Shown here: positions 1 through 20,129 of the stretch, piece by piece
Position numbering within the stretch: position 1 is the stretch's first letter
How the letters are laid out: each line of letters begins with the position of its first letter
Source of the DNA: a virus
Lineage: Duplodnaviria; Heunggongvirae; Uroviricota; Caudoviricetes
Reading direction: 5' to 3' (one strand)
Length of the DNA: 20,129 bases
Virus record (IMG/VR): IMGVR_UViG_2534681762_000006
Notes under the pieces: model-generated
What the model was told of the DNA's origin: nothing
Database searches by the model: none
The model's input: the letters and a program-made list of their open reading frames with translations, nothing else
Position numbers and translations under genes: made by a program

Positions 1-88
1 CGTCACCTTCACCAATAAATTCATTAGTTCCGGCCAGCAGATTATAAATTGTTATGGTCCGTGGTTGTTCACTCATTCTGAATGCCAT
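1..88 (-). CDS. tfa: tail fiber assembly protein Tfa, N-terminal 29 codons only (gene runs off the left edge of the window)
   Basis: Minus-strand ATG at 86-88 overlaps the stf stop (TAATG). Hand translation gives [29 protein letters not shown], which matches the N-terminus I remember for lambdoid Tfa proteins. Not in the ORF track because it is truncated by the window edge. Confidence 0.65.
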
Positions 89-3048
89 TATGCAAGCCTC
101 ACAATATAGTTAAATGCGATGTTTTTGACGGTGTTTTCCGCGTTACCAGCAGCGTTAACGGTGATGGTGTGTCCATGTGAACCAATCGCAACGGAGTGCG
201 TGTGTGCACCAATACCGACAGTATGTGCGTGTGCACCTGCAGATGCTGCTGTGCCGGACAGTGAGTGGCTATGGTTACCATCTGTACTGGTATTAGCTAA
301 CGCCCCCGTAGACATACCTACTGAGCCTTGTACACCCCAGGTATTTTGACCTGAGCTTGTATAACCATATTGATAAGTATCTTTAAAAACACTGGGGTTA
401 AATCGACGGCCATCTCTATGGCTGTGATTACCAGCTGCATTCGTGCTGCCACTTAAACTATGGGTATGCGCACCAGTGTTATTCGTGGATTTAGTGCCGT
501 AATCAAACGACGATGTGGTTTTCGTCCCCAAATCAGTACTGGATGCGCTGGCGCTGTGGGTATGCGATTTTATGCCGTCCTGTTCCTGAGACAATACGGC
601 ACGACCACTGGCGGGCTTGCCCTTAATCGTCCAGCCACGCATATCAGGGATCACGCCTGACGGATAAGCAACTGCAAGTTTCGGGTAAGCAGATTTGTCA
701 AAAGTCTGCCCCTGCATCAGGGCATAGCCAGACGGAACGGTATCTGATGGCCACGGGATTGGTGCGCCAGGCGGATAAAACTGCTCTGATGGCGTATAGA
801 GTGAATAAACTGTACCGTCCGTTAACCCTTCCGGCTTATTAGCAGAATATGCTGGTGACGTATGAATCGTCACGCTGGCATTACTGGTATAATCCCATTG
901 AATATTTACACCAGTCGCATAATTTCCGATTGCAACGTAAATATCGTAAGTATCACCAGATGTATTGACCCAGGCAAAATTTGTAAACCCTGTCGATGTG
1001 CGCTGCCATAAAGCACCAGTAATCCCCTTCGGATTACCATTACCTGCACGTAAAACAAGTTCAGATATACCTGCCTGTTGAGGTGACCCCACGTTAAATC
1101 CAGCGCCACCAATCAACGTAATTGAAACAACAGAACTCGCCTGTGGCATGGTTACCGTTGCTAATTTGAACCAACCAGCACCACCGCTGAATGACATTGT
1201 TGTTGAGTTAAGCGTACCAATATCTTTCGGCGTCAGTGTTATATCCGCTGAAAGCGCCTTACCATTCACCTTACGGGCAGAAGGTACCCGACCATTCGCA
1301 TTGTCATTAGCTGCTTTCACTGCTTTCGGTGTCGCAGCAAGCGTTTCAGATGTGCTGTTGGTTGCACTACTGAGCTGGACAATTCCTTTTTGTGCTGTCG
1401 TAGCGTCCTGTGCGGTGTATTTCCCGTTAGCCAGGTCATACGCGGCCTTAACGGCTTTTGGCGTTGCCGCCAGTGACTCGGAAGTGCTGTTAGTCGCACT
1501 GCTGAGCTGAACTATCCCTTTCTGTGCTGTCGTTGCATCCTGTGCGGTGTATTTCCCGTTAGCCAGGTCATACGCGGCCTTAACGGCTTTTGGCGTTGCC
1601 GCCTGTGACTCGGAAGTGCTGTTGGTCGCACTGCTGAGCTGTACTATCCCCTTTTTCGTCGTGCTCGCATCCTCAAGCGCCACGGCGGATGCAATATCCT
1701 CTGCCCGTTTTGCTGCTGTCTCGGCGCGCGTTGCCGCGGATTCCGCCGTACTTTTGCTCTGTGCTGCCGCTGCCGCACTGCCAGCAGCCTCTGTCGCCTT
1801 CGTGGATGCCGTCGTGGCGCTGCCCCTCGCTGCTGACGCCTGTCTGGTCGCCTCATCTTTTGAAGCAGACGCAGATGATGCCGATGACGCCGCCGAACTG
1901 GCGGACGATGCGGCAGCCGTTTTTGAGGATTCTGCGCTGGTTTCCGACGCTTTCGCGTTCGTTTCGGATGTCTTCGCTGCGGAAGCAGACCTCGCTGCTG
2001 CGCTGGCCTGTTCAGTGGCTTCGCCAGCCTTCGTTGTGGCTGTTGAAGCGGATGATGCGGCGCTTTCTGCCGATTTTCCGGCGGCGGTGGCACTGACTGC
2101 TGCCTCCTCTGCCTTAATGGACGCCTCACGGGCCGATGATGCAGCTGCTGTCTCAGAGTCTGCCGCAGCTGAGGCGCTCTGTTCCGCTGCCGTTTCAGAA
2201 GACCTGGCATTCGTCTCGGACGTTTTTGCCGCCTTCACGGAATTTCCTGCCGCCGTTGCCGAGGAGGCTGCACTGCTGGCGCTTGTGGAGGCGTTCGTTT
2301 CTGATGATTTTGCCGCCTCTTTGGAGGCCGCCGCATCTCTGGCTGAAGTGGCGGCTTCTGACGCTTTCGTCGTCGCAGTGGATGCAGAAGTGGCTGCTGA
2401 TTTTTGTGACGCTGCAGCATTCGTTTCTGACGTTTTCGCCGCACCGGCACTGGTGGCCGCCGCGCTTTTTGAGGACTCTGCAGCGGCAGCACTTTTTGAT
2501 GCTTCAGTGGCCTTTGTTGATGCCGTTCCTGCGCTGGAAGACGCCTCCTGAGCCGAAGTCGCGGCCTGTCCGGCTGACGTGCTGGCTGCACGCGCTGAGC
2601 CTGCAGCATCAGTCGCATGGGTTGCCGCCTCACGGGCAGATGTGCCGGCATCACTGGCTGACTTCTTCGCGGCTGCCGTGTTCTGTGCCACCACGGACGC
2701 GTTACGCGCCACCTCTTCCACCATCAGTTCAAAACGGCGCAGAGCCTCCGGACGGGCATCATCCTCCGTCATGGCACCGAGAAAATCATTCAGCGTACCG
2801 GGTCGGGAATCTTCATACACGGTGATGGTCCCGGCATGTGACGGCGGGAATCCTTCCACCAACAGAATAACGCTGTACTGACCGTACTCAACGTCCATGC
2901 TGTAACGCCCGGCTTCATCCGGATTTTCTGAGGCCAGCGTGTTCACCACCACCGAGGTGCTGTTACGTTTTGCTTTCAGCTGGATTGTGCAGTTCTGTAC
3001 CGGTTTTCCTGTGCCGTCTTTCAGTACACCTGAAATCTTTACTGCCAT
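88..3048 (-). CDS. stf: side tail fiber protein Stf (about 986 aa), with a long Ala/Ser/Thr-rich shaft, three tandem 44-aa repeats and a His-rich C-terminal tip
   Basis: ORF 88..3054 (-). N-terminus [26 protein letters not shown] and C-terminus [24 protein letters not shown] match lambda Stf as I recall it. The likely true start is the ATG at 3046-3048; the ORF track begins at an upstream GTG. Confidence 0.9.
1270..1665 (-). repeat. three tandem in-frame 132-bp repeats inside stf, each encoding a 44-aa unit ([43 protein letters not shown])
   Basis: The string tgcggtgtatttcccgttagccaggtcatacgcggccttaacggcttttggcgttgccgcc recurs at about 1411 and 1543, a period of 132 bp. The protein shows three consecutive 44-aa units, the third diverged. 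Confidence 0.85.
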
Positions 3049-3056
3049 ATTCACCC

Positions 3057-3086
3057 CACAAAAAAGCCCGCCTGAACCGGCGGGCT
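3057..3086 (-). terminator. putative intrinsic terminator between lom and stf
   Basis: 8-bp GC-rich stem (3065-3072 pairs with 3079-3086) with a 6-nt loop; on the minus-strand transcript it is followed by UUUUUUGU. It sits just upstream of the stf start and overlaps its RBS region. Confidence 0.55.
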
Positions 3087-3112
3087 GTCATAACACTGTG
3101 TTACCTGGCTAA

Positions 3113-3712
3113 TCAGAACTTATAACCGACACCCACGATGAAACCGTCAGTGCGCCAGTCGCCACTGCCGGAGCCTTCATAAGCAATATCAATGGCCACG
3201 GATTCGGTCGGGTTAAACTGCACGCCAGCTCCCCACGCCAGAGACGTGTTGCTGTGGCGACCGTCATCACTTCCGGTCAGCACGTCGTGCGTTTTCCCCT
3301 TGTTGTCAGTTACGCGGAGATAATCCCCGGAGAAAGTCGACACACGGCTGTAAGCCACACCCGCCATCGCATACGCGCTGAACCATTCATTCACGCGCAC
3401 AGACGGCCCCGCCATTACGCTGAACCAGCGGTTACGAACGGAATCTTCATGCCAGCGAGTATCGCTGTAATGGGTCAGCTGGCGATTCTTGTCTCCTGCA
3501 TAGCTGAATGACGTCACCAGCCCCAGCGTATCCGTAAACTCATAACGGTATTTCACGTTAATCCCGTTCAGATCATCACTGCCGGGAACGTTGGTCCGGG
3601 CATGAAGATACCCCGCGCTCAGCGTGGACTGATGTTCAGACGCCCATGCAGGCGCACCGGATACGGCCAGACAAATGGCTGCGGACAAAATGGCGGCACA
3701 AACTTTACGCAT
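3113..3712 (-). CDS. lom: Lom/Ail-family outer membrane beta-barrel protein (prophage moron)
   Basis: 199-aa ORF with an N-terminal signal peptide (MRKVCAAILSAAICLAVSGAPAWA) and the C-terminus IAYEGSGSGDWRTDGFIVGVGYKF shared with lambda Lom. It occupies the lambda position between J and stf. GAGAGG Shine-Dalgarno upstream of the ATG. Confidence 0.9.
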   Translation of the reverse strand: MRKVCAAILSAAICLAVSGAPAWASEHQSTLSAGYLHARTNVPGSDDLNGINVKYRYEFTDTLGLVTSFSYAGDKNRQLTHYSDTRWHEDSVRNRWFSVMAGPSVRVNEWFSAYAMAGVAYSRVSTFSGDYLRVTDNKGKTHDVLTGSDDGRHSNTSLAWGAGVQFNPTESVAIDIAYEGSGSGDWRTDGFIVGVGYKF

Positions 3713-3733
3713 AATTACCTCTCGCTTTTCTGC

Positions 3734-3760
3734 AATAAAAAAGGCGTCATTCCTGACGCC
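3734..3760 (-). terminator. putative intrinsic terminator between J and lom
   Basis: Stem ggcgtca (3743-3749) pairs with tgacgcc (3754-3760) around a 4-nt loop; the minus-strand transcript continues with UUUUUUAUU. On the plus strand it is flanked by A- and T-rich runs, so it may act in both directions. Confidence 0.55.
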
Positions 3761-3823
3761 ATTTATTGGGGTTATAAATATTTCAACGAATACTGATGCC
3801 GGAAGCCGCTTTTTTGGTCACAA

Positions 3824-4639
3824 TCACCGTACAGTCGGTGATATTGCCTGCCCCCTGATTGCCTTCTGGAAAATCTTAAACTCCAGAGTGACGCTACCAC
3901 CACCACTAGGCATATCAATAACTGCACTGTAACTACCGGGAATGGCCCCTTTAGTTTCTCTGGATGCGATTAATACGCCGTTTTTGCGAACTTCAAAACC
4001 ATAACCCGTGTATCGCGTGCCTCCCGAGTTATTTCCGCTCCCCGGATCGTCATACGCTATACCGTTAAAAATAATGGGCGGAATAATAATCTGGCGGTCA
4101 AAGTTATGATCATCGCTGATGGTGACTGTAACCGTACCGTCTGGTGTTTCCGTGTTACCCCACGTACCGACTTTTTTCGGGAAGGCTTTTGATACAGCTT
4201 TAACGAAATCCCCTCTGACCTGGGTCGCCTCCAGCATGCCCTTAATCGTACAGTTCTGGTTAATCGTGACATTGTTGAGCGTTCCTGAGTTCGCATTCAC
4301 ACTGCCACTGATATCCGCATTTTTAGCGGTCAGCTTTCCGTCTGATGTCAGGGAAAATACCGGAGGACTGCCACCACTGGTAATGGTGGGGGCCGTCAGG
4401 CGCTTCAGGAACACGTCGTTCATGAATATCTGATTGCCCTGCGCCACAAACATCGGCGTTTCATTCCCGTTTGCCGGGTCAATAAATGCGATACGGTTAG
4501 CGGCAACCAGAAACTGACTCAGTTTGCCTTCCTCCGTGTCCTCCATGCTGAGGCCAATACCCGCGACATAATGTTTGCCGTCTTTGGTCTGCTCAATTTT
4601 GACAGCCCACATGGCATTCCACTTATCGTTGGCGTCCTT
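3824..4639 (-). CDS. J: host specificity protein J, C-terminal receptor-binding segment, lying downstream of an in-frame TGA
   Basis: Same reading frame as ORF 4640..7195. The codons after the TGA read [81 protein letters not shown], which matches the lambda J C-terminal region as I recall it. The last ~150 aa diverge from lambda. Confidence 0.85.
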
Positions 4640-7198
<2,559 letters not shown>

Positions 7199-7255: not shown

Positions 7256-7550
7256 TCAGCGACCAATCACCACAACCTGACCACCGTCCCCTTCGTCTGC
7301 CGTGCTGATCTCCTGAGAAACCACGCGAGACCCCACGCGCATTTCCCCGTACAGAACAGGCAGAACATTGCCCTGGGCAACCATGTTATCCAGTGAGGAG
7401 AAATAGGTGTTCTGCTTACCGTTATCCGTTGTCTGTGTACGGGGAGTTCTGGCTTTCGGTGCCAGCATCTGCGCCACACCACCGAGCACCATACTGGCAC
7501 CGAGAGAAAACAGGATGCCGGTCATACCACCGGTCCCAATGGCTGCCCCC
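7256..7550 (-). CDS. I: tail tip assembly protein I, C-terminal part, in the frame downstream of a 1-nt frameshift
   Basis: ORF 7256..7552 translates to MGAAIGTGGMTGILFSLGASMVLGGVAQMLAPKARTPRTQTTDNGKQNTYFSSLDNMVAQGNVLPVLYGEMRVGSRVVSQEISTADEGDGGQVVVIGR, matching the lambda gpI C-terminus. Confidence 0.85.
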
Positions 7551-7926
7551 ATGCTGCAAGGGTGGCTCCGGCGGTAAAGAATGATCCGGCAATGGCGGCA
7601 GCCCCCAGGACAATCTGGAATACGCCACCTGACTTGGCCCCGGCGACTCTGGGAACAATATGAATCACAGCGCCATCAGGCAGAGTCTCATGTAACTGCG
7701 CCGTTAACCCGGACGTGCTGACGTCCCGCCCGGCAATCCGTACCTGATACCAGCCGTCGCTCAGTTTCTGACGAAACGCCGGGAGCTGTGTGGCCAGTGC
7801 CCGGATGGCTTCAGCCCCCGTTTTCACACGAAGGTCGATGCGGCGACCAAATCGTTGTAAATCCCCGTAAAGGCAGATGCGCGCCATGCCCGGTGACGCC
7901 AGAGGGAGTGTGTGCGTCGCTGCCAT
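7546..7926 (-). CDS. I: tail tip assembly protein I, N-terminal part, in the frame upstream of the frameshift
   Basis: ORF 7522..7926 begins MAATHTLPLASPGMARICLYGDLQRFGRRIDLRVKTGAEAIRALATQLPAF, the lambda gpI N-terminus. After ...TLAAWG it leaves frame and ends in 7 missense codons. The start overlaps the K 3-prime end by 103 nt, as in lambda. Confidence 0.85.
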
Positions 7927-8567
7927 TTGTCGGTGTACCTCTCTCGTTTGCTCAGTTGTTCAGGAATATGGTGCAGCAGCTCGCCGTCGCCGCAGTAAAT
8001 TGCGGCGTGATTCGGCACTGATGAACCAAAACAGCACAGCAGCACATCGCCCGGCTGTGCCGCTGACAACGGCACCTGATACAGCCCCGTCGCCTCCAGA
8101 TTATCCAGATAGAGATTCTGGCCGTGACGCCACCAGTCATCCTCACGATAAAAGTCCGGCATCTCAATCCCCGCCAGATGATAAGCATCCCGGAACAGTG
8201 TGTAACAGTCCGTCACACCGTGCTCAAAGCGCCGCCCGGAAAGATGCGGCACACAGCGGAACTTATGAATCGTCCCCCGGCAGACCAGCCACCACGGCAA
8301 ATCACTCTGCACCTGCAGCCGCCGGTCGGCCTCACTCAGCCAGGGCAGACCACCGGGGTGGCTGTGGACCAGCGCCACAATCTCACCCTGCATTTCTGCC
8401 TGCAGCCAGTCTTCCGGCGACATACGGAAATACGCCTCCGGCTCACCGGAGATATTCACGCAGGGAAAATATCTTTCCCCCTCCGGCGTGCTTACCACGA
8501 AGCCGCACGACTCCGCTGGCGCACATCGCCGGGCGTGCGCCAGAATCGCTGATTCTGTCTGTGTCAT
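7824..8567 (-). CDS. K: tail tip assembly protein K (MPN/JAB plus NlpC/P60 domains); long form 247 aa from ATG at 8565-8567, lambda-annotated short form 199 aa from ATG at 8421-8423
   Basis: Translation matches lambda gpK. The open frame extends 48 codons upstream of the conventional start with no stop, and that extension contains AESCGFVV, which resembles the conserved Glu of the JAMM motif that precedes HSHPGG. Confidence 0.85.
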   Translation of the reverse strand: MTQTESAILAHARRCAPAESCGFVVSTPEGERYFPCVNISGEPEAYFRMSPEDWLQAEMQGEIVALVHSHPGGLPWLSEADRRLQVQSDLPWWLVCRGTIHKFRCVPHLSGRRFEHGVTDCYTLFRDAYHLAGIEMPDFYREDDWWRHGQNLYLDNLEATGLYQVPLSAAQPGDVLLCCFGSSVPNHAAIYCGDGELLHHIPEQLSKRERYTDKWQRRTHSLWRHRAWRASAFTGIYNDLVAASTFV

Positions 8568-8572
8568 GGGAT

Positions 8573-9271
8573 TTACTGCGAAAGTTTGTTAATGGAAAGG
8601 AAGCCGCCAAAGTTGCCGACGTTATTGCGGAACTTACAACCGCTCAGGCATTTGCTGCATTTATCCTTCGTGATATCGGACGTTGGCTGGTCATATTCAT
8701 CCGCGACAGCCGGACCGCTATAACCGCACTCGTCACCGCGATAGGTCCAGGTGCAGGTGTTGGCCAGCATGATACGTCCCGGAAAAACAGCGCCATCCGT
8801 TTCCGTCGGCGTGGACAGTACAAAGGAGGCACTCACCGCGCTCAGTTCGCTGCACTGCTCAATGCGCCAGCGGCTGATCACCTCCTGCTCCGGATCGGCG
8901 TAACTGTTTCCGTTGACGAAGTTCACCGCATCCAGAAAACGGGCGTAAACCTTACGCCGGACCACCGTTCCGCCGACCAGACTCTGCATATCTTCCGCCA
9001 TCCCGGTGACCATACCGTACAGGTTAGAAACCGTCAGCGTGGGGCGCGTACTGGTGCCTTTGCCATTCAGTTCAAAACCGCTCCCCTGAATGGGATACGG
9101 CTGATACTGTCGCCCCTGCCAGGTGACCGGCTCACCTTTTTCGTTCTGCTCATTACAGAAAAAATAACGTTCTCCACCGACCTCTGTCAGGTCGATTTCC
9201 CAGAGCACCACGCTGGCCGACTGCTCCGCACGGGTGCATTCATTCAGTGTTTCCTGCCGGATATCCTGCAT
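8573..9271 (-). CDS. L: tail tip assembly protein L
   Basis: 232 aa, the same length as lambda gpL. Starts MQDIRQETLNECTRAEQSASVVLWEIDLTEVGGERYFFCNEQNEKGEPVTWQGRQYQPYPIQGSGFELNGKG. Confidence 0.9.
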   Translation of the reverse strand: MQDIRQETLNECTRAEQSASVVLWEIDLTEVGGERYFFCNEQNEKGEPVTWQGRQYQPYPIQGSGFELNGKGTSTRPTLTVSNLYGMVTGMAEDMQSLVGGTVVRRKVYARFLDAVNFVNGNSYADPEQEVISRWRIEQCSELSAVSASFVLSTPTETDGAVFPGRIMLANTCTWTYRGDECGYSGPAVADEYDQPTSDITKDKCSKCLSGCKFRNNVGNFGGFLSINKLSQ

Positions 9272-9600
9272 CAGTTCACCACCTGTTCAAACTCTGCGCT
9301 GAACTCAACACGCAACATACTGACCCGCGACGACCATTTTGCGCAGGTCACCTTTATCTGCCGCCACTCATAAGGCGGCGTCCACAGAAAGGATTTCCAG
9401 CCCCCGTGCTCTTCCAGAAACGACTCCAGTACCGTGGCCTCCTCACGGGGGACAGAAAGCGTCACGCTGTACGTTTTCAGGTTGGCATTCAGCCCGGCAG
9501 GCGCTCGCTGAGAATAGCCATCACCAAAGCGCACCTTTCTTACAGAAGGGACCGAAGCCACATCCATACCGGGTTTCACTTTCCAGCGGAAGGTCTTCAT
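9271..9600 (-). CDS. M: tail tip assembly protein M
   Basis: 109 aa, the same length as lambda gpM. Its start overlaps the H stop by 4 nt (ATGA) and its stop abuts the L start, as in lambda. Confidence 0.9.
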   Translation of the reverse strand: MKTFRWKVKPGMDVASVPSVRKVRFGDGYSQRAPAGLNANLKTYSVTLSVPREEATVLESFLEEHGGWKSFLWTPPYEWRQIKVTCAKWSSRVSMLRVEFSAEFEQVVN

Positions 9601-10301
9601 CGTCCACCTCCGGAGAACAGGCCACCATCACGCATCTGTGTCTGAATTTCATCACGGGCACCCTTGCGGGCCATGTCATACACCGCCTTCAGAGCAGCCG
9701 GACCTATCTGCCCGTTCGTGCCGTCGTTGTTAATCACCACATGGTTATTCTGCTCAAACGTCCCGGACGCCTGCGACCGGCTGTCTGCCATGCTGCCCGG
9801 TGTACCGACATAACCGCCGGTGGCATAGCCGCGCATCAGCCGGTAAAGATTCCCCACGCCAATCCGGCTGGTTGCCTCCTTCGTGAAGACAAATTCACCA
9901 CGGTGAACAATCCCCGCTGGCTCATATTTGCCGCCGGTTCCCGTAAATCCTCCGGTTGCAAAATGGAATTTCGCCGCAGCGGCCTGAATGGCTGTACCGC
10001 CTGACGCGGATGCGCCGCCACCAACAGCCCCGCCAATGGCGCTGCCGATACTCCCGACAATCCCCACCATTGCCTGCTTAAGCAGAATTTCTGTCATCAT
10101 GGACAGCACGGAACGGGTGAAGCTGCGCCAGTTCTGCTCACTGCCGGTCAGCATCGCCGCCATATTCTGTGCAATACCATCAAAGGTCTGCGTGGCTGCA
10201 CTTTTTACCTGCGACATACTGTCCGTGGCGCTCTCTTCCCACTCACTCCAGCCGGACTTCAGGCCTGCCATCCAGCTCCCGCGAAGCTGGTCTTCAGCCG
10301 C
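9597..10301 (-). CDS. H: tail tape measure protein H, C-terminal segment (234 codons) downstream of an in-frame TAG
   Basis: In frame with ORF 10302..12158. It reads AAEDQLRGSWMAGLKSGWSEWEESATDSMSQVKSAATQTFDGIAQNMAAM...RDGGLFSGGGR, matching the lambda gpH C-terminus. Confidence 0.88.
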   Translation of the reverse strand, partial: AAEDQLRGSWMAGLKSGWSEWEESATDSMSQVKSAATQTFDGIAQNMAAMLTGSEQNWRSFTRSVLSMMTEILLKQAMVGIVGSIGSAIGGAVGGGASASGGTAIQAAAAKFHFATGGFTGTGGKYEPAGIVHRGEFVFTKEATSRIGVGNLYRLMRGYATGGYVGTPGSMADSRSQASGTFEQNNHVVINNDGTNGQIGPAALKAVYDMARKGARDEIQTQMRDGGLFSGGGR

Positions 10302-12158
10302 CTAGGTCTTTTTCTGCTCTGACATGACGTTATTCAGCGCCAGCGGATTATCGCCATACTGTTCCTTCAGGCGCTGTTCCGTGGCTTCCCGTTCTGCCTG
10401 CCGGTCAGTCAGCCCCCGGCTTTTCGCATCAATGGCGGCCCGTTTTGCCCGTTGCTGCTGTGCGAATTTATCCGCCTGCTGCGCCAGCGCGTTCAGGCGC
10501 TCCTGATACGTAACCTTGTCGCCAAGTGCAGCCAGCTGGCGTTTGTACTCCAGCGTCTCATCTTTATGCGCCAGCAGGGATTTCTCCTGTGCGGACAGCT
10601 GGCGACGTTGTGCCGCCTCCTCCAGTACCGCGAACTGACTTTCTGCCTTCCACAAATCCCGGCGCTGCTGGCTGATTTTCTCATTCGCTCCGGCATGCTT
10701 CTCCAGCGTCCGGAGTTCTGCCTGAAGCGTCAGCAGGGCAGCATGAGCACTGTCTTCCTGACGATCGCCCGCAGACACCTTCACGCCGGACTGTTTCGGC
10801 TTTTTCAGCGTCGCTTCATAATCCTTTTTCGCCGCCGCCATCAGCGTGTTGTAATCCGCCTGCAGGATTTTCCCGTCTTTCAGTGCCTTGTTCAGTTCTT
10901 CCTGACGGGCGGTATATTTCTCCAGCGGCGTCTGCAGCCGTTCGTAAGCCTTCTGCGCCTCTTCGGTATATTTCAGCCGTGACGCTTCGGTATCGCTCTG
11001 CTGCTGCGCATTTTTGTCCTGTTGAGTCTGCTGCTCAGCCTTCTTTCGGGCGGCTTCAAGCGCAAGACGGGCCTTTTCACGATCATCCCAGTAACGCGCC
11101 CGCGCTTCATCGTTAACAAAATAATCATCCTTGCGCAGATTCCAGATGTCGTCTGCTTTCTTAAACGCAGCCTCTGCCTTAATCAGCATCTCCTGCGCGG
11201 TATCAGGACGACCAATATCCAGCACCGCATCCCACATGGATTTGAATGCCCGTGCTGTCCTGTCTGCCCAGGTTTCCAGCGTGCCCATGTTCTCTTTCAA
11301 GCGTCGGGTCTGGTCATCAAACCCTTTCGTTGCGGCCTCGTTCGCCGCCTGCAATGCCCCGGCTTCATCGCCGGAACGCTGCAACTGAGCAACATACGCA
11401 ATCTGCTCCGCCGTCACGTTATGGAACTGGCGTGCCATCGCCGTCAGCCCCGACGTCGGGTCTGTGGTCAGCTTCCCGAAGGCTTCAGCGACCTTGTCCA
11501 CCTCCACGCCGGATGCAGAGGAGAAACGCGCCACACTCTGGCTGATGGACGCAATCTGAGCCTCACCGCTTACCCCCGCCTTAACCAGTGCGCTGAGTGA
11601 CTCGCTGGTCTGGTTAAACGTCAGCCCTGCCGCCTGCCCGGCTCTGGACAGGACCAGCATACGATCTGCCGTCAGTCCCGCCTGATTGCCGGAAAGGACC
11701 AGCGTTTTGTTGAAATCGGACAGGGTTGAGTTGCCCTGATACCAGGCATACGCCAGCGCTCCGGTCGCCACCGCCAGCGAGGTAGCCCCCACCATCGGCA
11801 GGGTGATCGCACCGGCAAGCCCCCGGAACATGGGGATCATCCCGCCGAAGGAGTCCTTCACCTGACCCCCCTGTTGCAGCAGGATCAGCCACGGACTTTG
11901 CCCGCCTGCAAGCTGCGTGGCCACGTCAGTGAACTGCGCAGGCAGCATACGCATGGCGGCTTTATACTGCCCGACGGAAATTCCCGCTTTCTGTGCAGCC
12001 AGCGCCTGCCGGTTCATCGACTGTTCAACGACTGCCGCTGTTTTTTTCGCATCACTTTCCGTACCGGAAAAATGACGCCTGACTCTGGCCATCTGCTCGT
12101 CAAATCTGGCCGCATCCAGACTCAAATCAACGACCAGATCGCCTACCGGTTCAGCCAT
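10302..12158 (-). CDS. H: tail tape measure protein H, N-terminal 618 codons, ending at an in-frame TAG (10302-10304)
   Basis: Starts MAEPVGDLVVDLSLDAARFDEQMARVRRHFSGTESDAKKTAAVVEQS. The segments total 618 + 1 + 234 = 853 codons, exactly the lambda gpH length. The stop sits where I recall Trp in lambda (...MSEQKKT-W-AAEDQL). Confidence 0.9.
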   Translation of the reverse strand: MAEPVGDLVVDLSLDAARFDEQMARVRRHFSGTESDAKKTAAVVEQSMNRQALAAQKAGISVGQYKAAMRMLPAQFTDVATQLAGGQSPWLILLQQGGQVKDSFGGMIPMFRGLAGAITLPMVGATSLAVATGALAYAWYQGNSTLSDFNKTLVLSGNQAGLTADRMLVLSRAGQAAGLTFNQTSESLSALVKAGVSGEAQIASISQSVARFSSASGVEVDKVAEAFGKLTTDPTSGLTAMARQFHNVTAEQIAYVAQLQRSGDEAGALQAANEAATKGFDDQTRRLKENMGTLETWADRTARAFKSMWDAVLDIGRPDTAQEMLIKAEAAFKKADDIWNLRKDDYFVNDEARARYWDDREKARLALEAARKKAEQQTQQDKNAQQQSDTEASRLKYTEEAQKAYERLQTPLEKYTARQEELNKALKDGKILQADYNTLMAAAKKDYEATLKKPKQSGVKVSAGDRQEDSAHAALLTLQAELRTLEKHAGANEKISQQRRDLWKAESQFAVLEEAAQRRQLSAQEKSLLAHKDETLEYKRQLAALGDKVTYQERLNALAQQADKFAQQQRAKRAAIDAKSRGLTDRQAEREATEQRLKEQYGDNPLALNNVMSEQKKT

Positions 12159-12585
12159 ACCGGACTCCTCCTGCGATCCCTTCTGATACTGTCATCAGCA
12201 TTACGTCATCCTCCGTCATGTCCGCCACATCCGGGGAAGCGGGGATAACTTCATTCCCGTCCGGGCCAAAGCGGACGCCTCCGGCAAGCCCTGCCGCTTT
12301 CTGCATCAGCACATCATCTTCAGGCTCTTCGTCAGCCTCGCGCCGGTTCAGCAGACTGAAATCCAGCGGATGCATATCCGGATCGCTGAAAAACAGGCTG
12401 AGTACGGTGTACGTCAGCCCGGAAAAGTGCATATCCAGCAGAACATCATGAAAATAATGGGTACTGTAAAAGCGGTGCCAGTCGGCATACTCCGTGGATG
12501 ACATCCCGGCAAGCATGGCGCGCCAGTCGGGTCGCCCCATCTCACGCGCCAGTTTCAGGGCAAAACTCAGCTCACCGTCGAACAC
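12151..12585 (-). CDS. T: T-frame of the tail assembly chaperone, expressed only as a G-T fusion by programmed -1 frameshifting (the listed start is an ORF-caller artefact)
   Basis: ORF translation (M)FDGELSFALKLAREMGRPDWRAMLAGMSSTEYADWHRFYSTHYFHDVLL matches the lambda T-frame. It overlaps H by 8 nt and G by 19 nt, as in lambda. Confidence 0.85.
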   Translation of the reverse strand: MFDGELSFALKLAREMGRPDWRAMLAGMSSTEYADWHRFYSTHYFHDVLLDMHFSGLTYTVLSLFFSDPDMHPLDFSLLNRREADEEPEDDVLMQKAAGLAGGVRFGPDGNEVIPASPDVADMTEDDVMLMTVSEGIAGGVRYG

Positions 12586-12989
12586 TTTCCCGCAGAAACA
12601 GGCTCTGCTGGCCCGGCGTCATCTGCCTGTTCAGGTGCATCATTCACAACAAACTCAGACATACCGGACAGACGCATTACCACATTTTCAGCCTGAGCAA
12701 TTGCCTCTGTGGGCCAGGTGGTAAGCACTTCCTGCTCAATTTGTTTAACGGCTTCATTCATGGACGGCATCTTTGTCTTCTGCGGATGGCTATGCCACAG
12801 GGACATCGCCACCAGAAAAGCACCGGTTCTGACGAGATCTTCCACGCTCACCTGTCGATTGAGACTGGATCCCGCCTGTTCTGCCTGTCGTTTCAGCAGG
12901 GCGAGATGCTCAATTCGCTGCAGGGCTGACAGTTCAGAAAGCGTGACGCTCACACCGTTATATTCAAATGATTCGGTTTTCAGGAACAT
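12567..12989 (-). CDS. G: tail assembly chaperone G
   Basis: 140 aa, the same length as lambda gpG: MFLKTESFEYNGVSVTLSELSALQRIEHLALLKRQAEQAGS... Confidence 0.9.
   Translation of the reverse strand: MFLKTESFEYNGVSVTLSELSALQRIEHLALLKRQAEQAGSSLNRQVSVEDLVRTGAFLVAMSLWHSHPQKTKMPSMNEAVKQIEQEVLTTWPTEAIAQAENVVMRLSGMSEFVVNDAPEQADDAGPAEPVSAGKCSTVS
12585..12591 (-). other. programmed -1 ribosomal frameshift slippery heptamer G_GGA_AAG (G to G-T fusion)
   Basis: Plus-strand ctttccc at 12585-12591 is GGGAAAG on the minus strand. In the G frame the codons are GCG GGA AAG UGU; after a -1 slip the reading is GGG AAA GUG UUC GAC..., giving the T-frame sequence VFDGELSF. Confidence 0.85.
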
Positions 12990-13004
12990 CGCTGACTCTC
13001 CGGA

Positions 13005-13745
13005 TTAACTGTCGGTGACGGTGATTTCTGCAACCACAGCAAGTTCACCATTACCGGATACAACCGGAATGTTGACCTTGCCTGCAGCAACACCTTTCAC
13101 GGTGATGGTCATACCACTGACCGACACGGTGGCTTTTGTTTTATCCGCAGACACCGCACGGAAGCTCTTGTCGGTTGCGCCTTCCGGCTGGAATGCCACG
13201 GTCAGCGTGGTGCTCTGCCCTTTCACCACCGAAGTGCTGGCAGGCGTCACGGTCATGCCGGTTGCCGCTGTTACCGTGCTGCGATCTTCTGCCATCGACG
13301 GACGTCCCACGTTGGTGACTTTCACCGTGCGGGTGATCACTTCCTTCGCCGTCACCGCCTTACCGATACTGCTGACCCAGCCGCGAAACACATCGACCGT
13401 GCCGTTCGGGAAGCGGATTTTATAGGCACGGGTATCCCCTTCATTAAACCACGCCAGCAGCGCCTGCTGCCCCTGCTCTCCGGGCATCCACGCCAGCGTG
13501 AAGCTGGTATCTCCGGCAGATTTCTGCCCCTGCCCGGTCGCAGTCCAGTCCGCATCTTCATCATCGAGATAGCTGTCGTCATAGGACTCAGCGGTCAGTT
13601 CGCCGGGCGTCAGGTCTTTAACTTTAGCCAGACGCGACCAGTCAACGTCTGAAAGCGGGTTCGCATAAGGGTCACCGTTCCCCTTATAAACCCACAGTGT
13701 GGTCCCGGCCCCTTTCACCGGCATTACTGGATTTGGTACAGGCAT
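13005..13745 (-). CDS. V: major tail tube protein V
   Basis: Start chosen at ATG 13743-13745 ([22 protein letters not shown]...), giving 246 aa as in lambda gpV. The ORF track extends to an upstream ATG at 13775, which would overlap U. GAGGA Shine-Dalgarno 4 nt upstream. Confidence 0.88.
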
Positions 13746-13752
13746 AGCGTCC

Positions 13753-14148
13753 TCACATTTCATAGGTAATGACATAAGTCAGATCGGCTGAACTCCACAG
13801 GCCCGCATCATCGTCGCGCCGGTAGTCATAGCCACTGGCCACCAAACTGGTGATCAAATCTGACAGTGCCGGGACATCGCTCATCACCGGATAAATCCGG
13901 GACTCCATCCACGAATCCAGCTCTGAATCCGGCACCTGAGCAGGCAGGAAAACTTCAATATGCAGCTCCGCCTGCCAGGTATCACTGTCCAGCTCTTCGC
14001 CCGTGTATTCAGCGCCGGTGAGATAAACGGCAATTGCCGGAAAATCCGCCTCATCAAAAACAGCGGGGCGACCATCAAAAAGCGTCGCCCCGGTGTCATG
14101 CTTCTCCAGTGCATCCAGTACGGCTGCACGGAGTTCAGTATGTTTCAT
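13753..14148 (-). CDS. U: tail terminator protein U
   Basis: 131 aa, the same length as lambda gpU: [54 protein letters not shown]... Overlaps Z by 4 nt. Confidence 0.9.
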
Positions 14149-14723: not shown

Positions 14724-14734
14724 ACATCCCCCTT

Positions 14735-15088: not shown

Positions 15089-15099
15089 AGCGCCTCCCG

Positions 15100-15498: not shown

Positions 15499-15516
15499 CT
15501 CCTCCACAGAGAGAAA

Positions 15517-15534
15517 ATGGCCCCGAAGGGCCAT
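15517..15534 (-). other. E-FI intergenic hairpin with a UUCG tetraloop
   Basis: Stem atggccc (15517-15523) pairs with gggccat (15528-15534). The plus-strand loop cgaa is UUCG on the minus-strand mRNA, closed by a C-G pair. It is followed by UUUCUCUCU and the FI Shine-Dalgarno. Confidence 0.5.
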
Positions 15535-15572: not shown

Positions 15573-15657
15573 GTAACCGTCTCATTTAAACCGTCTTTCG
15601 CCTCCCTTTCCTGTTTCCGATACTAATGTCCATTTTCGCAGTAAAGGGACATTTAAG

Positions 15658-16308
15658 ATGAATGCACGAAAAGCGGTACTGGCAGACAATCCGGAATTGA
15701 TCCTGCGTGTGCTACAACTGAGATTTGACGAGTCACTGTCGTACCCGCGCATTTCTGCGCAGACCGGTATCAGCAAAACCGCCATTTTTTCTCTGGTGAG
15801 GCGATTTCACCAGGTATTCACTGACTGGCCTCTTTCCGGAGAATATTCCTGCGTGCAACTGGCCCGGGCTCTGTTCCCGGGGCGATACCCTTCAGCCCCG
15901 ACAGTGACTCAGCCTGTGAAAACAGAGAAAATCCGCCGGAACCGATTTTCACCGGAGTTTAAATGGAGGCTTGTTCAGCAAACTCTTTTACCCGGTGCCT
16001 GTGTCGCACAAATAGCTCGTGAGAACGGAATCAACGATAACCTGCTCTTTAACTGGCGGCATCTCTGGCGTAACGGCGGCCTGCAGCCGACCGGCGAACA
16101 TGAAACATCGCTACTTCCCGTGACGTTAACTCCGGAGCCGGATAATAAAATCCCGGCACCAGTGCAGATACCTGAACAGATAAATACACCGCCCGACAGT
16201 CTGTGCTGTGAGCTGGTTCTGCCGGCCGGAACTCTCAGGCTGAAAGGTGAACTGACACCGGCGTTATTACAGACACTTATCCGCGAAATGAAAGGGAGCA
16301 GCCACTAA
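15658..16308 (+). CDS. tnpA: IS66-family accessory protein TnpA (Orf1), helix-turn-helix
   Basis: 216-aa ORF, first gene of the IS. Its stop overlaps the tnpB start (ATGA). Contains a transposase-like helix-turn-helix region (RRNRFSPEFKWRLVQQTLLPGACVAQIARENGINDNLLFNWR). Confidence 0.75.
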   Translation: MNARKAVLADNPELILRVLQLRFDESLSYPRISAQTGISKTAIFSLVRRFHQVFTDWPLSGEYSCVQLARALFPGRYPSAPTVTQPVKTEKIRRNRFSPEFKWRLVQQTLLPGACVAQIARENGINDNLLFNWRHLWRNGGLQPTGEHETSLLPVTLTPEPDNKIPAPVQIPEQINTPPDSLCCELVLPAGTLRLKGELTPALLQTLIREMKGSSH

Positions 16309-16655
16309 TGATATCTCTCCCTGCCGGTTCGCGTATCTGGCTGGTTGCCGGTATCACCGACATGCGAAATGGTTTTAACGGCCTGGCATCAAAAGTTCAG
16401 AACGTCCTGAAGGATGACCCGTTCTCCGGGCATCTGTTCATCTTCCGCGGACGCCGGGGTGACCAGATAAAAGTGTTGTGGGCTGACAGTGACGGACTGT
16501 GCCTCTTCACCAAACGCCTGGAGCGGGGCCGCTTCGTCTGGCCGGTTACCCGTGACGGCAAGGTGCACCTTACTCCGGCTCAGTTATCTATGCTTCTTGA
16601 AGGTATCAACTGGAAGCACCCGAAACGAACGGAACGCGCTGGCATCCGCATATAA
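16308..16655 (+). CDS. tnpB: IS66-family protein TnpB (Orf2)
   Basis: 115 aa: MISLPAGSRIWLVAGITDMRNGFNGLASKVQNVLKDDPFSGHLFIFRGRRGDQIKVLWADSDGLCLFTKRLERGRFVWP, the typical IS66 Orf2. Confidence 0.88.
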   Translation: MISLPAGSRIWLVAGITDMRNGFNGLASKVQNVLKDDPFSGHLFIFRGRRGDQIKVLWADSDGLCLFTKRLERGRFVWPVTRDGKVHLTPAQLSMLLEGINWKHPKRTERAGIRI

Positions 16656-16674
16656 CCCGTTGTAAAGTGAGGAT

Positions 16675-18228
16675 ATGGACACCTCACTTGCTCATGAGAA
16701 TGCCCGCCTGCGGGCACTGTTGCAGACGCAACAGGACACCATCCGCCAGATGGCGAAATACAACCGCCTGCTCTCACAGCGGGTGGCGGCTTATGCTTCC
16801 GAAATCAACCGGCTGAAGGCGCTGGTTGCGAAACTGCAGCGCATGCAGTTCGGTAAAAGCTCAGAAAAACTTCGCGCTAAAACCGAACGGCAGATACAGG
16901 AAGCCCAGGAGCGAATCAGCGCACTTCAGGAAGAAATGGCGGAAACGCTGGGTGAGCAATATGACCCGGTACTGCCATCCGCCCTGCGCCAGTCTTCAGC
17001 CCGTAAGCCGTTACCGGCCTCACTTCCCCGTGAAACCCGGGTCATCCGGCCGGAAGAGGAATGCTGCCCGGCCTGTGGTGGTGACCTCAGTCCTCTGGGG
17101 TGTGATGTGTCAGAGCAACTGGAGCTTATCAGCAGCGCTTTTAAGGTTATCGAAACACAACGTCCGAAACTGGCCTGTTGCCGGTGCGACCATATCGTGC
17201 AGGCACCAGTACCTTCAAAACCCATTGCACGCAGTTATGCCGGAGCGGGGCTTCTGGCTCATATCGTCACCGGGAAGTATGCAGACCATCTGCCGTTATA
17301 CCGCCAGTCAGAAATATACCTTCGTCAGGGCGTGGAACTGAGCCGCGCCACGCTGGGGCGCTGGACCGGTGCCGTTGCTGAACTGCTGGAGCCGCTGTAT
17401 GACGTGCTGCGCCAGTATGTGCTGATGCCCGGTAAAGTCCATGCGGATGATATCCCCGTTCCGGTCCAGGAGCCGGGCAGTGGTAAAACAAGAACTGCCC
17501 GGCTGTGGGTCTATGTCCGTGATGACCGTAACGCCGGTTCACAGATGCCCCCGGCGGTCTGGTTCGCGTACAGCCCGGACCGGAAAGGTATCCATCCACA
17601 GAATCACCTGGCCGGTTACAGCGGTGTGCTTCAGGCAGATGCTTACGGTGGTTACCGGGCGTTATACGAATCCGGCAGAATAACGGAAGCCGCGTGTATG
17701 GCCCATGCCCGGAGAAAAATCCACGATGTGCATGCAAGAGTGCCAACCGACATCACCACGGAAGCCCTGCAGCGTATCGGTGAACTGTATGTCATCGAGG
17801 CAGAAGTCCGGGGATGTTCAGCAGAACAGCGTCTGGCAGCAAGAAAAGCCAGAGCGGCTCCACTGATGCAGTCACTGTATGACTGGATACAGGAACAGAT
17901 GAAAACACTGTCGCGTCACTCGGATACGGCAAAAGCGTTCGCATACCTGCTGAAACAGTGGGAGGCCCTGAACGTGTACTGCAGTAATGGCTGGGTGGAA
18001 ATCGACAACAACATCGCAGAGAACGCCTTACGGGGAGTGGCCGTAGGCCGGAGAAACTGGCTCTTCGCGGGTTCCGACAGCGGTGGCGAACATGCGGCGG
18101 TGTTGTACTCGCTGATCGGCACATGCCGTCTGAACAATGTAGAGTCCAGAAAAATGGCTTGCGTTACGTTATTGAGCATATCCAGGACTGGCCGGCAAAC
18201 CGGGTACGCGAATCTGTTGCCCTGGTAA
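16675..18228 (+). CDS. tnpC: IS66-family DDE transposase TnpC, C-terminus frameshifted inside the first unit of the tandem duplication
   Basis: 517-aa ORF with an N-terminal coiled-coil and a CxxC...CxxC zinc-ribbon-like motif (CPACGG...CCRCDH). It ends ...[34 protein letters not shown], whereas the duplicated unit and the second IS copy read ...[37 protein letters not shown](T/S)SQ. Confidence 0.88.
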
Positions 18229-18660
18229 AGTTGATCTGACTTCTCAGTAAATATCAATACGGTTCTGGCGAGCCGCTTACAGATGAAAACACTGTCGCGT
18301 CACTCGGATACGGCAAAAGCGTTCGCATACCTGCTGAAACAGTGGGAGGCCCTGAACGTGTACTGCAGTAATGGCTGGGTGGAAATCGACAACAACATCG
18401 CAGAGAACGCCTTACGGGGAGTGGCCGTAGGCCGGAAAAACTGGCTCTTCGCGGGTTCCGACAGCGGTGGCGAACATGCGGCGGTGTTGTACTCGCTGAT
18501 CGGCACATGCCGTCTGAACAATGTAGAGCCAGAAAAATGGCTGCGTTACGTTATTGAGCATATCCAGGACTGGCCGGCAAACCGGGTACGCGATCTGTTG
18601 CCCTGGAAAGTTGATCTGACTTCTCAGTAAATATCAATACGGTTCTGGCGAGCCGCTTAC
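17897..18660 (+). repeat. direct tandem duplication of the IS66 right end: unit 1 at 17897..18280 (384 bp) and unit 2 at 18281..18660 (380 bp), each ending in the right inverted repeat
   Basis: Unit 2 repeats unit 1 from agatgaaaacactgtcgcgtcactcgg through gagccgcttac. Unit 1 differs by four 1-nt insertions (gagtccag vs gagccag; ggcttgcg vs ggctgcg; gcgaatctg vs gcgatctg; ccctggtaaag vs ccctggaaag) and one substitution (ggagaaactgg vs ggaaaaactgg). Confidence 0.9.
18283..18630 (+). CDS. TnpC C-terminal fragment (115 aa) encoded by duplication unit 2; an intact version of the transposase C-terminus
   Basis: [115 protein letters not shown]. Near-identical to the C-terminus of the second IS copy. 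Confidence 0.7.
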   Translation: MKTLSRHSDTAKAFAYLLKQWEALNVYCSNGWVEIDNNIAENALRGVAVGRKNWLFAGSDSGGEHAAVLYSLIGTCRLNNVEPEKWLRYVIEHIQDWPANRVRDLLPWKVDLTSQ

Positions 18661-18668
18661 TCAGGATC
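18661..18668. repeat. target-site duplication TCAGGATC, right copy
   Basis: See the left copy. 8 bp is the characteristic target-site duplication length for IS66-family elements. Confidence 0.9.
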
Positions 18669-19398
18669 AGCCAACAGCATCAGCGGTGCTGACTGAATCA
18701 TGGTGAACTCACGCGCCGGATCGCCGGTGGTCACCCAGTTTTTCGGGTAGCGGGCAGAGGCGTTAATACCTTCGCGCTGTGCGTCCGCATCCTGAATGCA
18801 GCCATAGGTGCGCAGACCGCGTGCCTGAGTGTTCCCCAGCACCATCGTGTTGTCCGGCAGGAAGTTCTTTTTGACGTCGTTTTCCACGTACTGTCCGGAA
18901 TACACGACGATCGCCGTATCGCCATACATCCCCTTATAGGACACCGCTTCGCCCAGGTCTTTTACCGCTGTCTCCAGCTCGGAATTAGAGCCGCGACGGG
19001 TATCCAGCTTCTCCTTGACGGCTTTGAAGGAACGGAACAGCGCCCAGCCTTTCGGATCAAACACGATGATATTCACCACGCCGCTGGCGTTCAGCGCGTA
19101 GGCTTCGATATCGTCGGTCGGGTCATACGTGGACTTGTCACGCTTGCTCCACTCCGTGCCGCCGGACTGCGTGATGTTGTTCGCCGCACTGCGGCCCATA
19201 TCCACCTCAACCGGATCGAAGGCTTCACCGGTCATGGTGTATTTGCCCTTGAGCACGGCAGAAACTGCCTGCATCTCTTCGACCTGAGCAATGGCCAGCT
19301 CTTCGTCACGCATGTTCTGCAGGATGATGCGACGGCGGCGGTAAGCCGGGTCCGCCAGATTCTGCGGATCTTCATCCGGCAGGCGACGCAGGGTCATC
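18661..19398 (-). pseudogene. E: major capsid protein E, internal fragment (about codons 91-333 of 341), bounded on both sides by IS66 ends
   Basis: ORF 18657..19397 translates to MTLRRLPDEDPQNLADPAYRRRRIILQNMRDEELAIAQVEEMQAVSAVLKGKYTMTGEAFDPVEVDMGRS...MIQSAPLMLLADP, matching lambda gpE from an internal Met. The terminal Glu and TAA stop are created at the IS junction. Confidence 0.88.
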
Positions 19399-20129
19399 GT
19401 AAGCGACTCGTCAGAACCGTATTGATATTTACTGAGAGCTCAGATCAACTTTCCAGGGCAACAGATCGCGTACCCGGTTTGCCGGCCAGTCCTGGATATG
19501 TTCAATGACGTAACGCAGCCACTTTTCTGGCTCCACATTGTTCAGACGGCATGTGCCGATCAGCGAGTACAACACCGCCGCATGTTCACCACCGCTGTCG
19601 GAACCCGCGAACATCCAGTTTTTCCGGCCTACGGCCACTCCCCGTAAGGCGTTCTCTGCGATGTTGTTGTCGATTTCCACCCAGCCATTACTGCAGTACA
19701 CGTTCAGTGCATCCCACTGTTTCAGCAGGTATGCGAACGCTTTTGCCGTATCTGAGTGACGCGACAGTGTTTTCATCTGTTGCTGTATCCAGTCATACAG
19801 TGACTGCATCAGTGGCGCGGCTCTGGCTTTTCTTGCCGCCAGACGCTGTTCTGCTGAACAGCACCGGACCTCTGCCTCGATGGCATACAGTTCACCGATA
19901 CGCTGCAGGGCTTCCGTGGTGATGTAGGTGGGCGCTCTTGCATGCACATCGTGGATTTTTCTCCGGGCATGAGCCATACACGCGGCTTCCGTTATTCTGC
20001 CGGATTCGTATAACGCCCGGTAACCACCGTAAGCATCGGCCTGAAGCACACCGCTGTAACCGGCCAGGTGATTTTGTGGATGGATACCTTTCCGGTCCGG
20101 ACTGTACGCGAACCAGACCGCCGGGGGCA
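19399..20129 (-). mobile_element. second IS66-family copy in inverted orientation, partial (runs off the right edge); its right inverted repeat abuts E at 19399
   Basis: Plus strand at 19399 reads gtaagcgactcgtcagaaccgtattgatatttactgag, the reverse complement of the first copy's right end with 2 mismatches in 38. Internal sequence encodes the TnpC C-terminal half on the minus strand. Confidence 0.85.
19429..20129 (-). CDS. tnpC: IS66-family transposase TnpC, C-terminal portion (5-prime part lies beyond the window)
   Basis: ORF 19429..20049 ((M)[60 protein letters not shown]...KVDLSSQ); the frame stays open upstream to the window edge (...[27 protein letters not shown]). It shows several amino-acid differences from copy 1 (for example VPTDITT vs APTYITT, WEAL vs WDAL, NWLF vs NWMF). 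Confidence 0.85.

What the first reader, a model, noticed from the sequence alone, without database searches (positions are those of the whole stretch)
7522..7560. Tail-tip gene I split by a 1-nt deletion in a C5/G5 homopolymer
The I reading frame changes at plus-strand ccccc (7546-7550). Adding one G on the coding strand restores TGG GGG GCA GCC ATT GGG (W G A A I G) and a continuous 223-codon lambda-like I. The upstream frame ends after 7 missense codons; the downstream ORF carries the rest of I. Homopolymer length errors are a common sequencing artefact, but slipped-strand mutation is also a genuine route to gene inactivation.
Basis: seen in the sequence. Interest (0 to 1): 0.45.

Follow-up and report, generated by a model that had tools for sequence, protein, structure and literature searches.

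The report
Frameshifted tail gene in dead prophage
The lambda-type tail-tip gene I in this contig really is broken by the loss of one G from a six-G run, but it is one of several ordinary inactivating lesions in a decayed prophage of the ETEC strain ThroopD.

Summary
On the minus strand, gene I is split at the C5 tract (7546-7550) into a 134-aa ORF (7522-7926) and a 98-aa ORF (7256-7552). Adding one G gives a 223-aa protein identical to gpI of the viable phage phiSTEC1575-Stx2k and 221/223 identical to lambda gpI. All phage records examined have G6.

The window is the whole contig AQEJ01000040.1 of ETEC strain ThroopD, sequenced with Illumina HiSeq 100-bp reads and assembled with Celera. It contains no other frameshifting indel in about 12 kb.

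The prophage is already dead:
- The capsid gene E is cut by IS66 elements (8-bp target duplication).
- H carries an amber codon.
- J carries an opal codon.

An independent assembly shares the IS junction and the H amber. A genuine slipped-strand deletion in a decaying prophage is therefore most likely (about 0.85). A sequencing artefact remains possible (about 0.12).

The same G5 allele recurs in 14 complete RefSeq E. coli chromosomes, where PGAP annotates it as "frameshifted". It also recurs in many error-prone long-read assemblies. This is ordinary and already known in kind, so interest is low.

The parts
7546..7550 (-). Homopolymer tract: C5 on the plus strand, G5 on the coding strand. It is G6 in all functional relatives. 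This is the site of the 1-nt deletion.
   Evidence: The only gap in I against lambda (C6 at lambda 15149) and against phiSTEC1575.
7256..7926 (-). Gene I (tail tip assembly / lumen plug protein gpI) as a frameshifted pseudogene, 671 nt instead of 672.
   Evidence: After repair it is 223/223 identical to phiSTEC1575 gpI and 221/223 to lambda gpI. RefSeq PGAP annotates the same allele elsewhere as 'tail assembly protein, frameshifted'.
7522..7926 (-). Upstream fragment of I: 134 aa, made of residues 1-127 of gpI plus 7 missense codons and TGA. It contains the PF06805 domain.
   Evidence: Pfam PF06805 Lambda_tail_I, E=4e-29, residues 14-97.
7256..7552 (-). Downstream fragment of I: 98 aa, M-G followed by gpI residues 128-223. 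This covers the whole part of gpI that is resolved in lambda virions (134/135-223). There is no convincing ribosome-binding site.
   Evidence: gpI residues resolved in virions: PMC10721106 and PMC12617516. The sequence shows GGAG 13 nt upstream of the ATG.
7824..8567 (-). Gene K, intact at 247 aa with JAB/MPN and NlpC/P60 domains. It overlaps the start of I by 103 nt, as in lambda.
   Evidence: Pfam PF14464, PF00877; for the lambda K/I overlap.
4640..7195 (-). Gene J, N-terminal 851 codons, ended by an opal codon (TGG to TGA, W852*) at 4640-4642.
3824..4612 (-). Remainder of J (C-terminal 262-aa ORF), in the same frame as the N-terminal part.
9597..12158 (-). Tape-measure gene H, 853 codons in frame but with an amber codon (TGG to TAG, W619*) at 10302-10304.
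   Evidence: The same codon is present in the independent assembly NKEQ01000071.1.
15573..18660 (+). IS66-family element (tnpA 216 aa, tnpB 115 aa, transposase 517 aa) inserted in the 3' end of capsid gene E. The 8-bp target duplication TCAGGATC lies at 15565-15572 and 18661-18668. The last ~382 bp of the element duplicate 17895-18280.
18661..19398 (-). Internal fragment of major capsid gene E (lambda nt 6395-7132), bracketed by two IS66 copies.
   Evidence: PF03864.
19399..20129 (-). End of a second IS66-family copy in inverted orientation, running to the contig end. It replaces or interrupts the 5' part of E.
   Evidence: 99.9% identical to the IS66 element in L009, reversed.

Best explanation
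Gene I of a lambda-like prophage in ETEC strain ThroopD lost one G from its G6 run through replication slippage. Translation therefore ends after 127 native residues plus 7 missense residues. The C-terminal part, residues 128-223, is no longer made. In lambda virions that part forms the trimeric plug in the tail-tip lumen and binds gpJ and the C-terminus of gpH.

The lesion is one of at least four inactivating lesions in a prophage that can no longer make particles:
- E is cut by IS66 elements.
- H carries an amber codon.
- J carries an opal codon.
- I carries this frameshift.

The frameshift is thus a neutral decay mutation at a mutational hot spot, and I is a pseudogene.

Shown directly: the deletion, the restored protein, the other lesions, the provenance of the contig, and the recurrence of the allele elsewhere. 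Inferred: that the deletion is in the DNA rather than in the assembly, and that slippage was the mechanism.
For: 1. The deletion and the exact restoration of a 223-aa gpI are shown.
2. The window is the whole of contig AQEJ01000040.1 of GCA_000355115.2.
   - AQEJ00000000 is strain ThroopD, run SRR447116.
   - It was sequenced on Illumina HiSeq2000 with 100-bp reads and assembled with Celera Assembler; the project averaged >200x coverage.
   - This chemistry is not prone to 5-versus-6 homopolymer errors (established knowledge).
3. The G5 tract is the only genuine window-side frameshifting indel in about 12 kb aligned to lambda or phiSTEC1575.
   - The other two flagged groups are the edge of the divergent J C-terminus and a 1-nt difference that lies in the lambda reference itself.
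   - Error-prone assemblies that carry G5 show 5-57 such indels per ~13 kb.
4. Relaxed selection is demonstrated by the other lesions.
   - IS66 sits in E with an 8-bp target duplication, and a second IS66 copy follows.
   - H has W619amber and J has W852opal.
   - The E::IS66 junction and the H amber are identical in the independent assembly GCA_002462765.1.
5. The same G5 allele exists in other clean, short-read-sized contigs whose neighbouring tail genes are all intact: L034, L035, L041 (a Logan assembly of ERR11813606) and L042.
6. It also exists in 14 complete RefSeq chromosomes on two haplotypes.
   - Two of the three inspected also carry IS66 insertions in J or V.
   - G6 to G5 is therefore a real, recurrent event.
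Against: - The reads were not examined, so the tract length in ThroopD DNA is not verified directly.
- The independent sister contig stops inside L (window 8631) and does not cover I, so the I lesion itself is not replicated.
- The J opal product was found only on the source contig.
- Many G5 calls elsewhere are clearly homopolymer artefacts of long-read assemblies. This shows the tract is also an error hot spot.
Confidence: 0.85

Rival explanations
1. Sequencing or assembly artefact. The ThroopD prophage really has G6 and an intact I, and the consensus dropped one base in the homopolymer, or collapsed reads from paralogous prophage copies.
For: - The G5 call is frequent in low-accuracy assemblies. 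Most long contigs that carry it have 5-57 frameshifting homopolymer indels per ~13 kb.
- In complete, mostly polished RefSeq genomes it is rare, at 14 of roughly 2,800 records.
- E. coli genomes often hold several near-identical K-I-J modules: median 2 and up to 7 places per genome.
- The I lesion is not replicated in a second assembly.
Against: - The assembly is Illumina HiSeq with Celera (project average >200x coverage), not 454, Ion Torrent or Nanopore.
- There is no other frameshifting indel in the contig.
- The surrounding lesions are substitutions and IS insertions, and two of them are reproduced independently.
- The same allele occurs in other clean short-read contigs.
Confidence: 0.12
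2. The G5 allele is not null. Either a -1 slip of tRNA-Gly on U-GGG-GGC (GGG to GGG, then GCA) regenerates exactly wild-type gpI at a low level, which might suffice because only three copies per virion are needed. Or the tract acts as a reversible G5/G6 switch.
For: - Read directly from the sequence, a -1 P-site slip on the G run would give W-G-A-A-I-G, which is the wild-type sequence.
- gpI is a trimer in the virion.
- The allele recurs on several backgrounds, sometimes in otherwise intact tail modules.
- A modest hairpin lies 8 nt downstream: MFE -42.8 kcal/mol over 96 nt, z = -2.1.
Against: - No phage record has G5: 0/56 and 0/80. With a background near 0.5% this sample is too small to be decisive.
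- There is no canonical X XXY YYZ heptamer.
- The downstream sequence is the same in G6 phages, which need no shift, so it is not a dedicated stimulator.
- A run of 5-6 G is short for phase variation.
- In this window it is moot, because E, H and J are also broken.
Confidence: 0.03

Closest known systems
Bacteriophage lambda gpI (tail tip assembly / 'insertion' or hub protein I; Pfam PF06805 Lambda_tail_I)
   Same: - Same gene position (K-I-J) and the same 103-nt overlap with K.
- 221/223 residues identical after repair; 223/223 to phiSTEC1575-Stx2k gpI.
   Different: The reading frame is broken after residue 127. The virion-resolved plug part (residues 134/135-223) is therefore not translated as part of the protein.
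RefSeq/PGAP 'tail assembly protein, frameshifted' pseudogenes in E. coli prophages (e.g. WHU73_RS16920 in Z1323PEC0010, I3Q_RS04215 in O103 RM8385, EW995_RS00150 in LSN03-016011/A)
   Same: - Exactly the same G6 to G5 lesion in the same gene.
- In RM8385 and LSN03-016011/A the prophage also carries an IS66-family insertion in a tail gene.
   Different: They lie in different strains and on partly different prophage backgrounds, at 95-98% identity. The window additionally has nonsense codons in H and J and two IS66 copies in E.
Frameshift in the side tail fibre gene stf of laboratory lambda (lambda PaPa)
   Same: It is a single-base frameshift that inactivates a lambdoid tail gene and splits it into two ORFs (mentioned in PMC10721106).
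   Different: stf is dispensable and the lambda mutant is a viable phage. gpI is a structural part of the tail tip, and here the whole prophage is defective.
Programmed -1 frameshift of the lambda G/GT tail chaperone genes
   Same: It is a frame change within the lambdoid tail gene cluster.
   Different: G/GT uses a conserved slippery sequence present in all functional relatives. In gene I, functional phages have an uninterrupted frame (G6), so the shift in this window is a mutation and not a conserved recoding signal.

Membership tests
Lambda gpI / PF06805 Lambda_tail_I | N-terminal Lambda_tail_I domain above the Pfam gathering score | tested here: met
   99.9-101.3 bits against a cut-off of 23.8, residues 14-97, in both the repaired protein and the 134-aa fragment.
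Lambda gpI / PF06805 Lambda_tail_I | Full-length colinearity with lambda gpI (223 aa), including the C-terminal plug region 134-223 | tested here: met
   This holds only after inserting one G: 221/223 identical to lambda and 223/223 to phiSTEC1575. The C-terminal region is encoded in the other frame (98-aa ORF).
Lambda gpI / PF06805 Lambda_tail_I | Position between K and J, with the start overlapping the end of K | tested here: met
   The order is K 7824-8567, I 7256-7926, J from 7195 downward, with a 103-nt K/I overlap as in lambda.
Lambda gpI / PF06805 Lambda_tail_I | Uninterrupted reading frame (a functional gene rather than a pseudogene) | tested here: not met
   a 1-nt deletion, with a stop after 7 missense codons. 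It is filed as a pseudogene of this family.
Defective (decaying) lambdoid prophage | Several independent inactivating lesions in essential morphogenesis genes | tested here: met
   E is interrupted by IS66 with an 8-bp target duplication, and a second IS66 copy follows. H has an amber and J an opal codon. I has the frameshift.
Defective (decaying) lambdoid prophage | Lesions are inherited, not assembly noise | tested here: inconclusive
   The IS junction and the H amber are reproduced in GCA_002462765.1. The I and J lesions are not covered by any second assembly that could be retrieved.
Programmed ribosomal frameshift site | The shifted arrangement is conserved in functional relatives, with a slippery heptamer and a dedicated stimulator | tested here: not met
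   All phage records have G6 and a single frame. There is no X XXY YYZ heptamer in the sequence. The downstream fold is only z = -2.1 and is shared with G6 phages.
IS66 family insertion sequence (flanking lesion) | tnpA-tnpB-transposase trio, GTAA... terminal repeats and an 8-bp target duplication | tested here: met
   (PF01527, PF05717, PF13007/PF13005/PF03050). (ends GTAACCG.../...GCTTAC; target duplication TCAGGATC).

The most novel reading that the evidence does not exclude
The recurrent G5 allele of lambdoid gene I could be leaky or reversible rather than null. A -1 slip of tRNA-Gly on the G run would regenerate exactly wild-type gpI. Only three copies are needed per virion, so prophages whose only lesion is G5 might still produce some infectious particles. 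Alternatively they might toggle between G5 and G6.
Probability: 0.03. Interest if true: 0.45.

Novelty: already known. Interest (0 to 1): 0.07.

Why it matters
It matters little beyond correct annotation. I should be annotated as a frameshifted pseudogene, and the ThroopD prophage should be treated as non-inducible for particle formation.

There are two minor practical points:
- The G6 run in lambdoid gene I is both a real slippage hot spot and a recurrent homopolymer-error site in long-read assemblies. A split I gene is therefore a handy local indicator of either prophage decay or assembly quality.
- The break falls exactly between the N-terminal PF06805 domain and the C-terminal part that plugs the tail tip in lambda virions.

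Tried and rejected
1. I looked for the source among complete RefSeq E. coli genomes.
   - The only exact 901-nt match (Z1323PEC0010) is a different, otherwise largely intact prophage.
   - No complete genome has the E::IS66 junction.
2. A scan of IMG/VR viral contigs for the exact G5 34-mer found no hits.
3. I tried to replicate the I lesion in the sister assembly GCA_002462765.1.
   - Exact-product look-ups of the J 851-aa fragment, the J 262-aa fragment and the 986-aa tail fibre returned only the source contig.
   - The sister contig ends in L.
4. I considered whether phage records with a 901-nt span (Chlobot, Lambda_ev058, ev099) carry G5. They have G6 and an intact I, and the missing base is in the I-J spacer.
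5. I considered whether the H and J stop codons could be systematic long-read errors at methylation motifs or homopolymer boundaries. I rejected this because the assembly is Illumina and the H amber recurs in a second assembly.
6. I considered programmed frameshifting. There is no conservation of the shifted state and no canonical slippery site, and the downstream structure is only modest.
7. The absence of G5 from phage records (0/80) is not statistically informative against a ~0.5% background in chromosomes, so I do not use it as proof of lethality.

Full report
**What is in the sequence**

The plus strand has exactly five C at 7546-7550. On the minus strand two ORFs overlap there.
- ORF 7522..7926 (134 aa) ends ...ATLAAWG-QPLGPVV*.
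- ORF 7256..7552 (98 aa) begins MGAAIGTGGMTG... at an ATG that spans the tract.

Against lambda and against the viable Stx2k phage phiSTEC1575, the only gap inside this gene is one missing C in a C6 run. Inserting one G restores 672 nt, which is 223 codons. The product is 223/223 identical to phiSTEC1575 gpI and 221/223 identical to lambda gpI. The N-terminal part carries PF06805 Lambda_tail_I at 100 bits. The gene lies between K and J and overlaps K by 103 nt, as in lambda.

**Which state is ancestral**

- All phage records inspected base by base have G6.
- None of the 56 and 80 phage records that match the two local haplotypes has an exact G5 61-mer.
- Among complete RefSeq E. coli genomes, 1 of 2,076 records carries G5 on the window's haplotype and 13 of 2,783 carry it on the lambda haplotype. 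The remaining listed hits span 62 nt, which means G6.

G6 is the functional and ancestral state, and G5 is a rare derived state that has arisen on more than one haplotype.

**Where the window comes from**

An exact look-up of the truncated H product showed that the window is the entire 20,129-bp contig AQEJ01000040.1 of GCA_000355115.2. AQEJ00000000 is ETEC strain ThroopD, from Dallas in 1975, run SRR447116 (supplement of PMC5469772). These genomes were sequenced on Illumina HiSeq2000 with 100-bp reads and assembled with Celera Assembler, at >200x average coverage (PMC5469772; PMC4462620).

**Context: the prophage is dead**

- E first IS66. The alignment to lambda is interrupted at 15573-18660 by an IS66-family element (tnpA, tnpB and transposase). 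It is inserted near the 3' end of the capsid gene E, with an 8-bp target duplication TCAGGATC.
- E second IS66. A second, inverted IS66 copy begins at 19399 and runs to the contig end. Only an internal piece of E (18661-19398) survives between the two copies.
- H. The tape-measure gene is in frame throughout but has TGG to TAG at codon 619 (10302-10304).
- J. This gene has TGG to TGA at codon 852 (4640-4642).
- I is thus one of at least four broken morphogenesis genes.

An independent assembly, GCA_002462765.1 contig NKEQ01000071.1, covers window 8631-15649. It is identical to the window apart from an 18-mismatch patch in L. The shared sequence includes the E::IS66 junction and the H amber codon. 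At least those two lesions are therefore real and inherited. That contig stops short of I.

**Real mutation or artefact**

Evidence for an artefact:
- The tract is plainly an error hot spot.
- The long contigs that carry the identical truncated product mostly come from assemblies with 5-57 frameshifting homopolymer indels per ~13 kb.

Evidence against an artefact in this window:
- The chemistry is Illumina.
- The contig has no other genuine frameshifting indel in ~12 kb. The two other flagged sites are the edge of the divergent J C-terminus and a 1-nt difference that belongs to the lambda reference K region.
- The gene lies in a prophage under demonstrably relaxed selection.
- The same G5 allele also occurs in clean contigs of short-read size in which H, M, L, K and J are all intact. 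These are L034, L035, L042 and the Logan assembly of ERR11813606.
- It also occurs in complete chromosomes where PGAP annotates it as 'frameshifted'. Two of the three inspected also have IS66 insertions in tail genes.

I put a genuine slipped-strand deletion at about 0.85 and an artefact at about 0.12.

**Consequence**

In lambda virions the resolved part of gpI is residues 134/135-223. This part forms a trimer that plugs the tail-tip lumen. It binds gpJ by beta-sheet augmentation and holds the C-terminal helix of gpH (PMC10721106; PMC12617516). The frameshift after residue 127 removes exactly that part from the translated product. The 98-aa downstream ORF encodes it, but only a weak GGAG lies 13 nt upstream of its ATG. 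With E, H and J also broken, the lesion has no separate phenotype.

**A more exotic reading**

A -1 slip of tRNA-Gly on the G run would regenerate wild-type gpI. Three points count against a programmed event:
- No functional phage carries the shifted arrangement.
- There is no canonical slippery heptamer.
- The modest downstream hairpin (z = -2.1) is shared with G6 phages.

I give this reading about 0.03.

**Verdict**

This is an ordinary frameshifted pseudogene at a homopolymer hot spot in a decayed lambdoid prophage. The same lesion is already annotated as such in RefSeq genomes. The kind is already known and interest is low.

Noticed in passing
window 10302-10304 (-) and 4640-4642 (-): The tape-measure gene H carries an in-frame amber codon (W619, TGG to TAG). 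The tail-tip gene J carries an in-frame opal codon (W852, TGG to TGA). Both are G-to-A transitions. The H amber is also present in the independent assembly NKEQ01000071.1.
   Followed up: yes
window 15565-18668 and 19399-20129: An IS66-family element (15573-18660) is inserted in the 3' end of capsid gene E, with the 8-bp target duplication TCAGGATC. Its last ~382 bp (18279-18660) are a direct duplicate of 17895-18280. A second, inverted IS66 copy starts at 19399 and ends the contig, leaving only an internal E fragment (18661-19398).
   Followed up: partly
window 8989-9100 (gene L) versus L015: The sister assembly GCA_002462765.1 is identical to the window over 7,019 bp except for 18 mismatches, all clustered in a 112-bp patch inside L. 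This looks like a gene-conversion or recombination patch, or read mixing from a paralogous prophage.
   Followed up: no
window 8433 (gene K, 7824-8567) versus lambda nt 14266: The lambda reference lacks one base that is present in the window and in phiSTEC1575. This is why lambda K is annotated as 199 aa, while K in the window is 247 aa with an N-terminal JAB/MPN domain plus NlpC/P60. Several prophages share the lambda state (199-aa calls in L018, L022, L026).
   Followed up: partly
window 7256-7552 (-): The downstream I ORF starts at an ATG formed across the frameshift site. It encodes residues 128-223, which is the whole gpI segment resolved in lambda virion structures. There is no good Shine-Dalgarno sequence (GGAG 13 nt upstream), so expression is doubtful.
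   Followed up: partly
loci L004-L013, L018-L027, L036, L038-L040, L043: Many long (>0.2 Mb) contigs from recent assembly series (JBIG.../JBIH... and others) carry the same G5 allele together with 5-57 frameshifting homopolymer indels per ~13 kb of prophage. Z, U, H, K, L and J are all fragmented, which marks these as error-prone long-read assemblies.
   Followed up: partly
window 1-4461 (J C-terminus, lom, tail fibre): From about 4228 downward the J C-terminal (receptor-binding) region and the 986-988-aa side tail fibre diverge from lambda (81-87% identity or no alignment), while lom is conserved. This is the usual mosaic host-range module. The exact 986-aa fibre product was found only on this contig.
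   Followed up: no
window 15268 (gene FI): There is a 3-nt in-frame deletion relative to lambda in FI. It is ordinary allelic variation.
   Followed up: no
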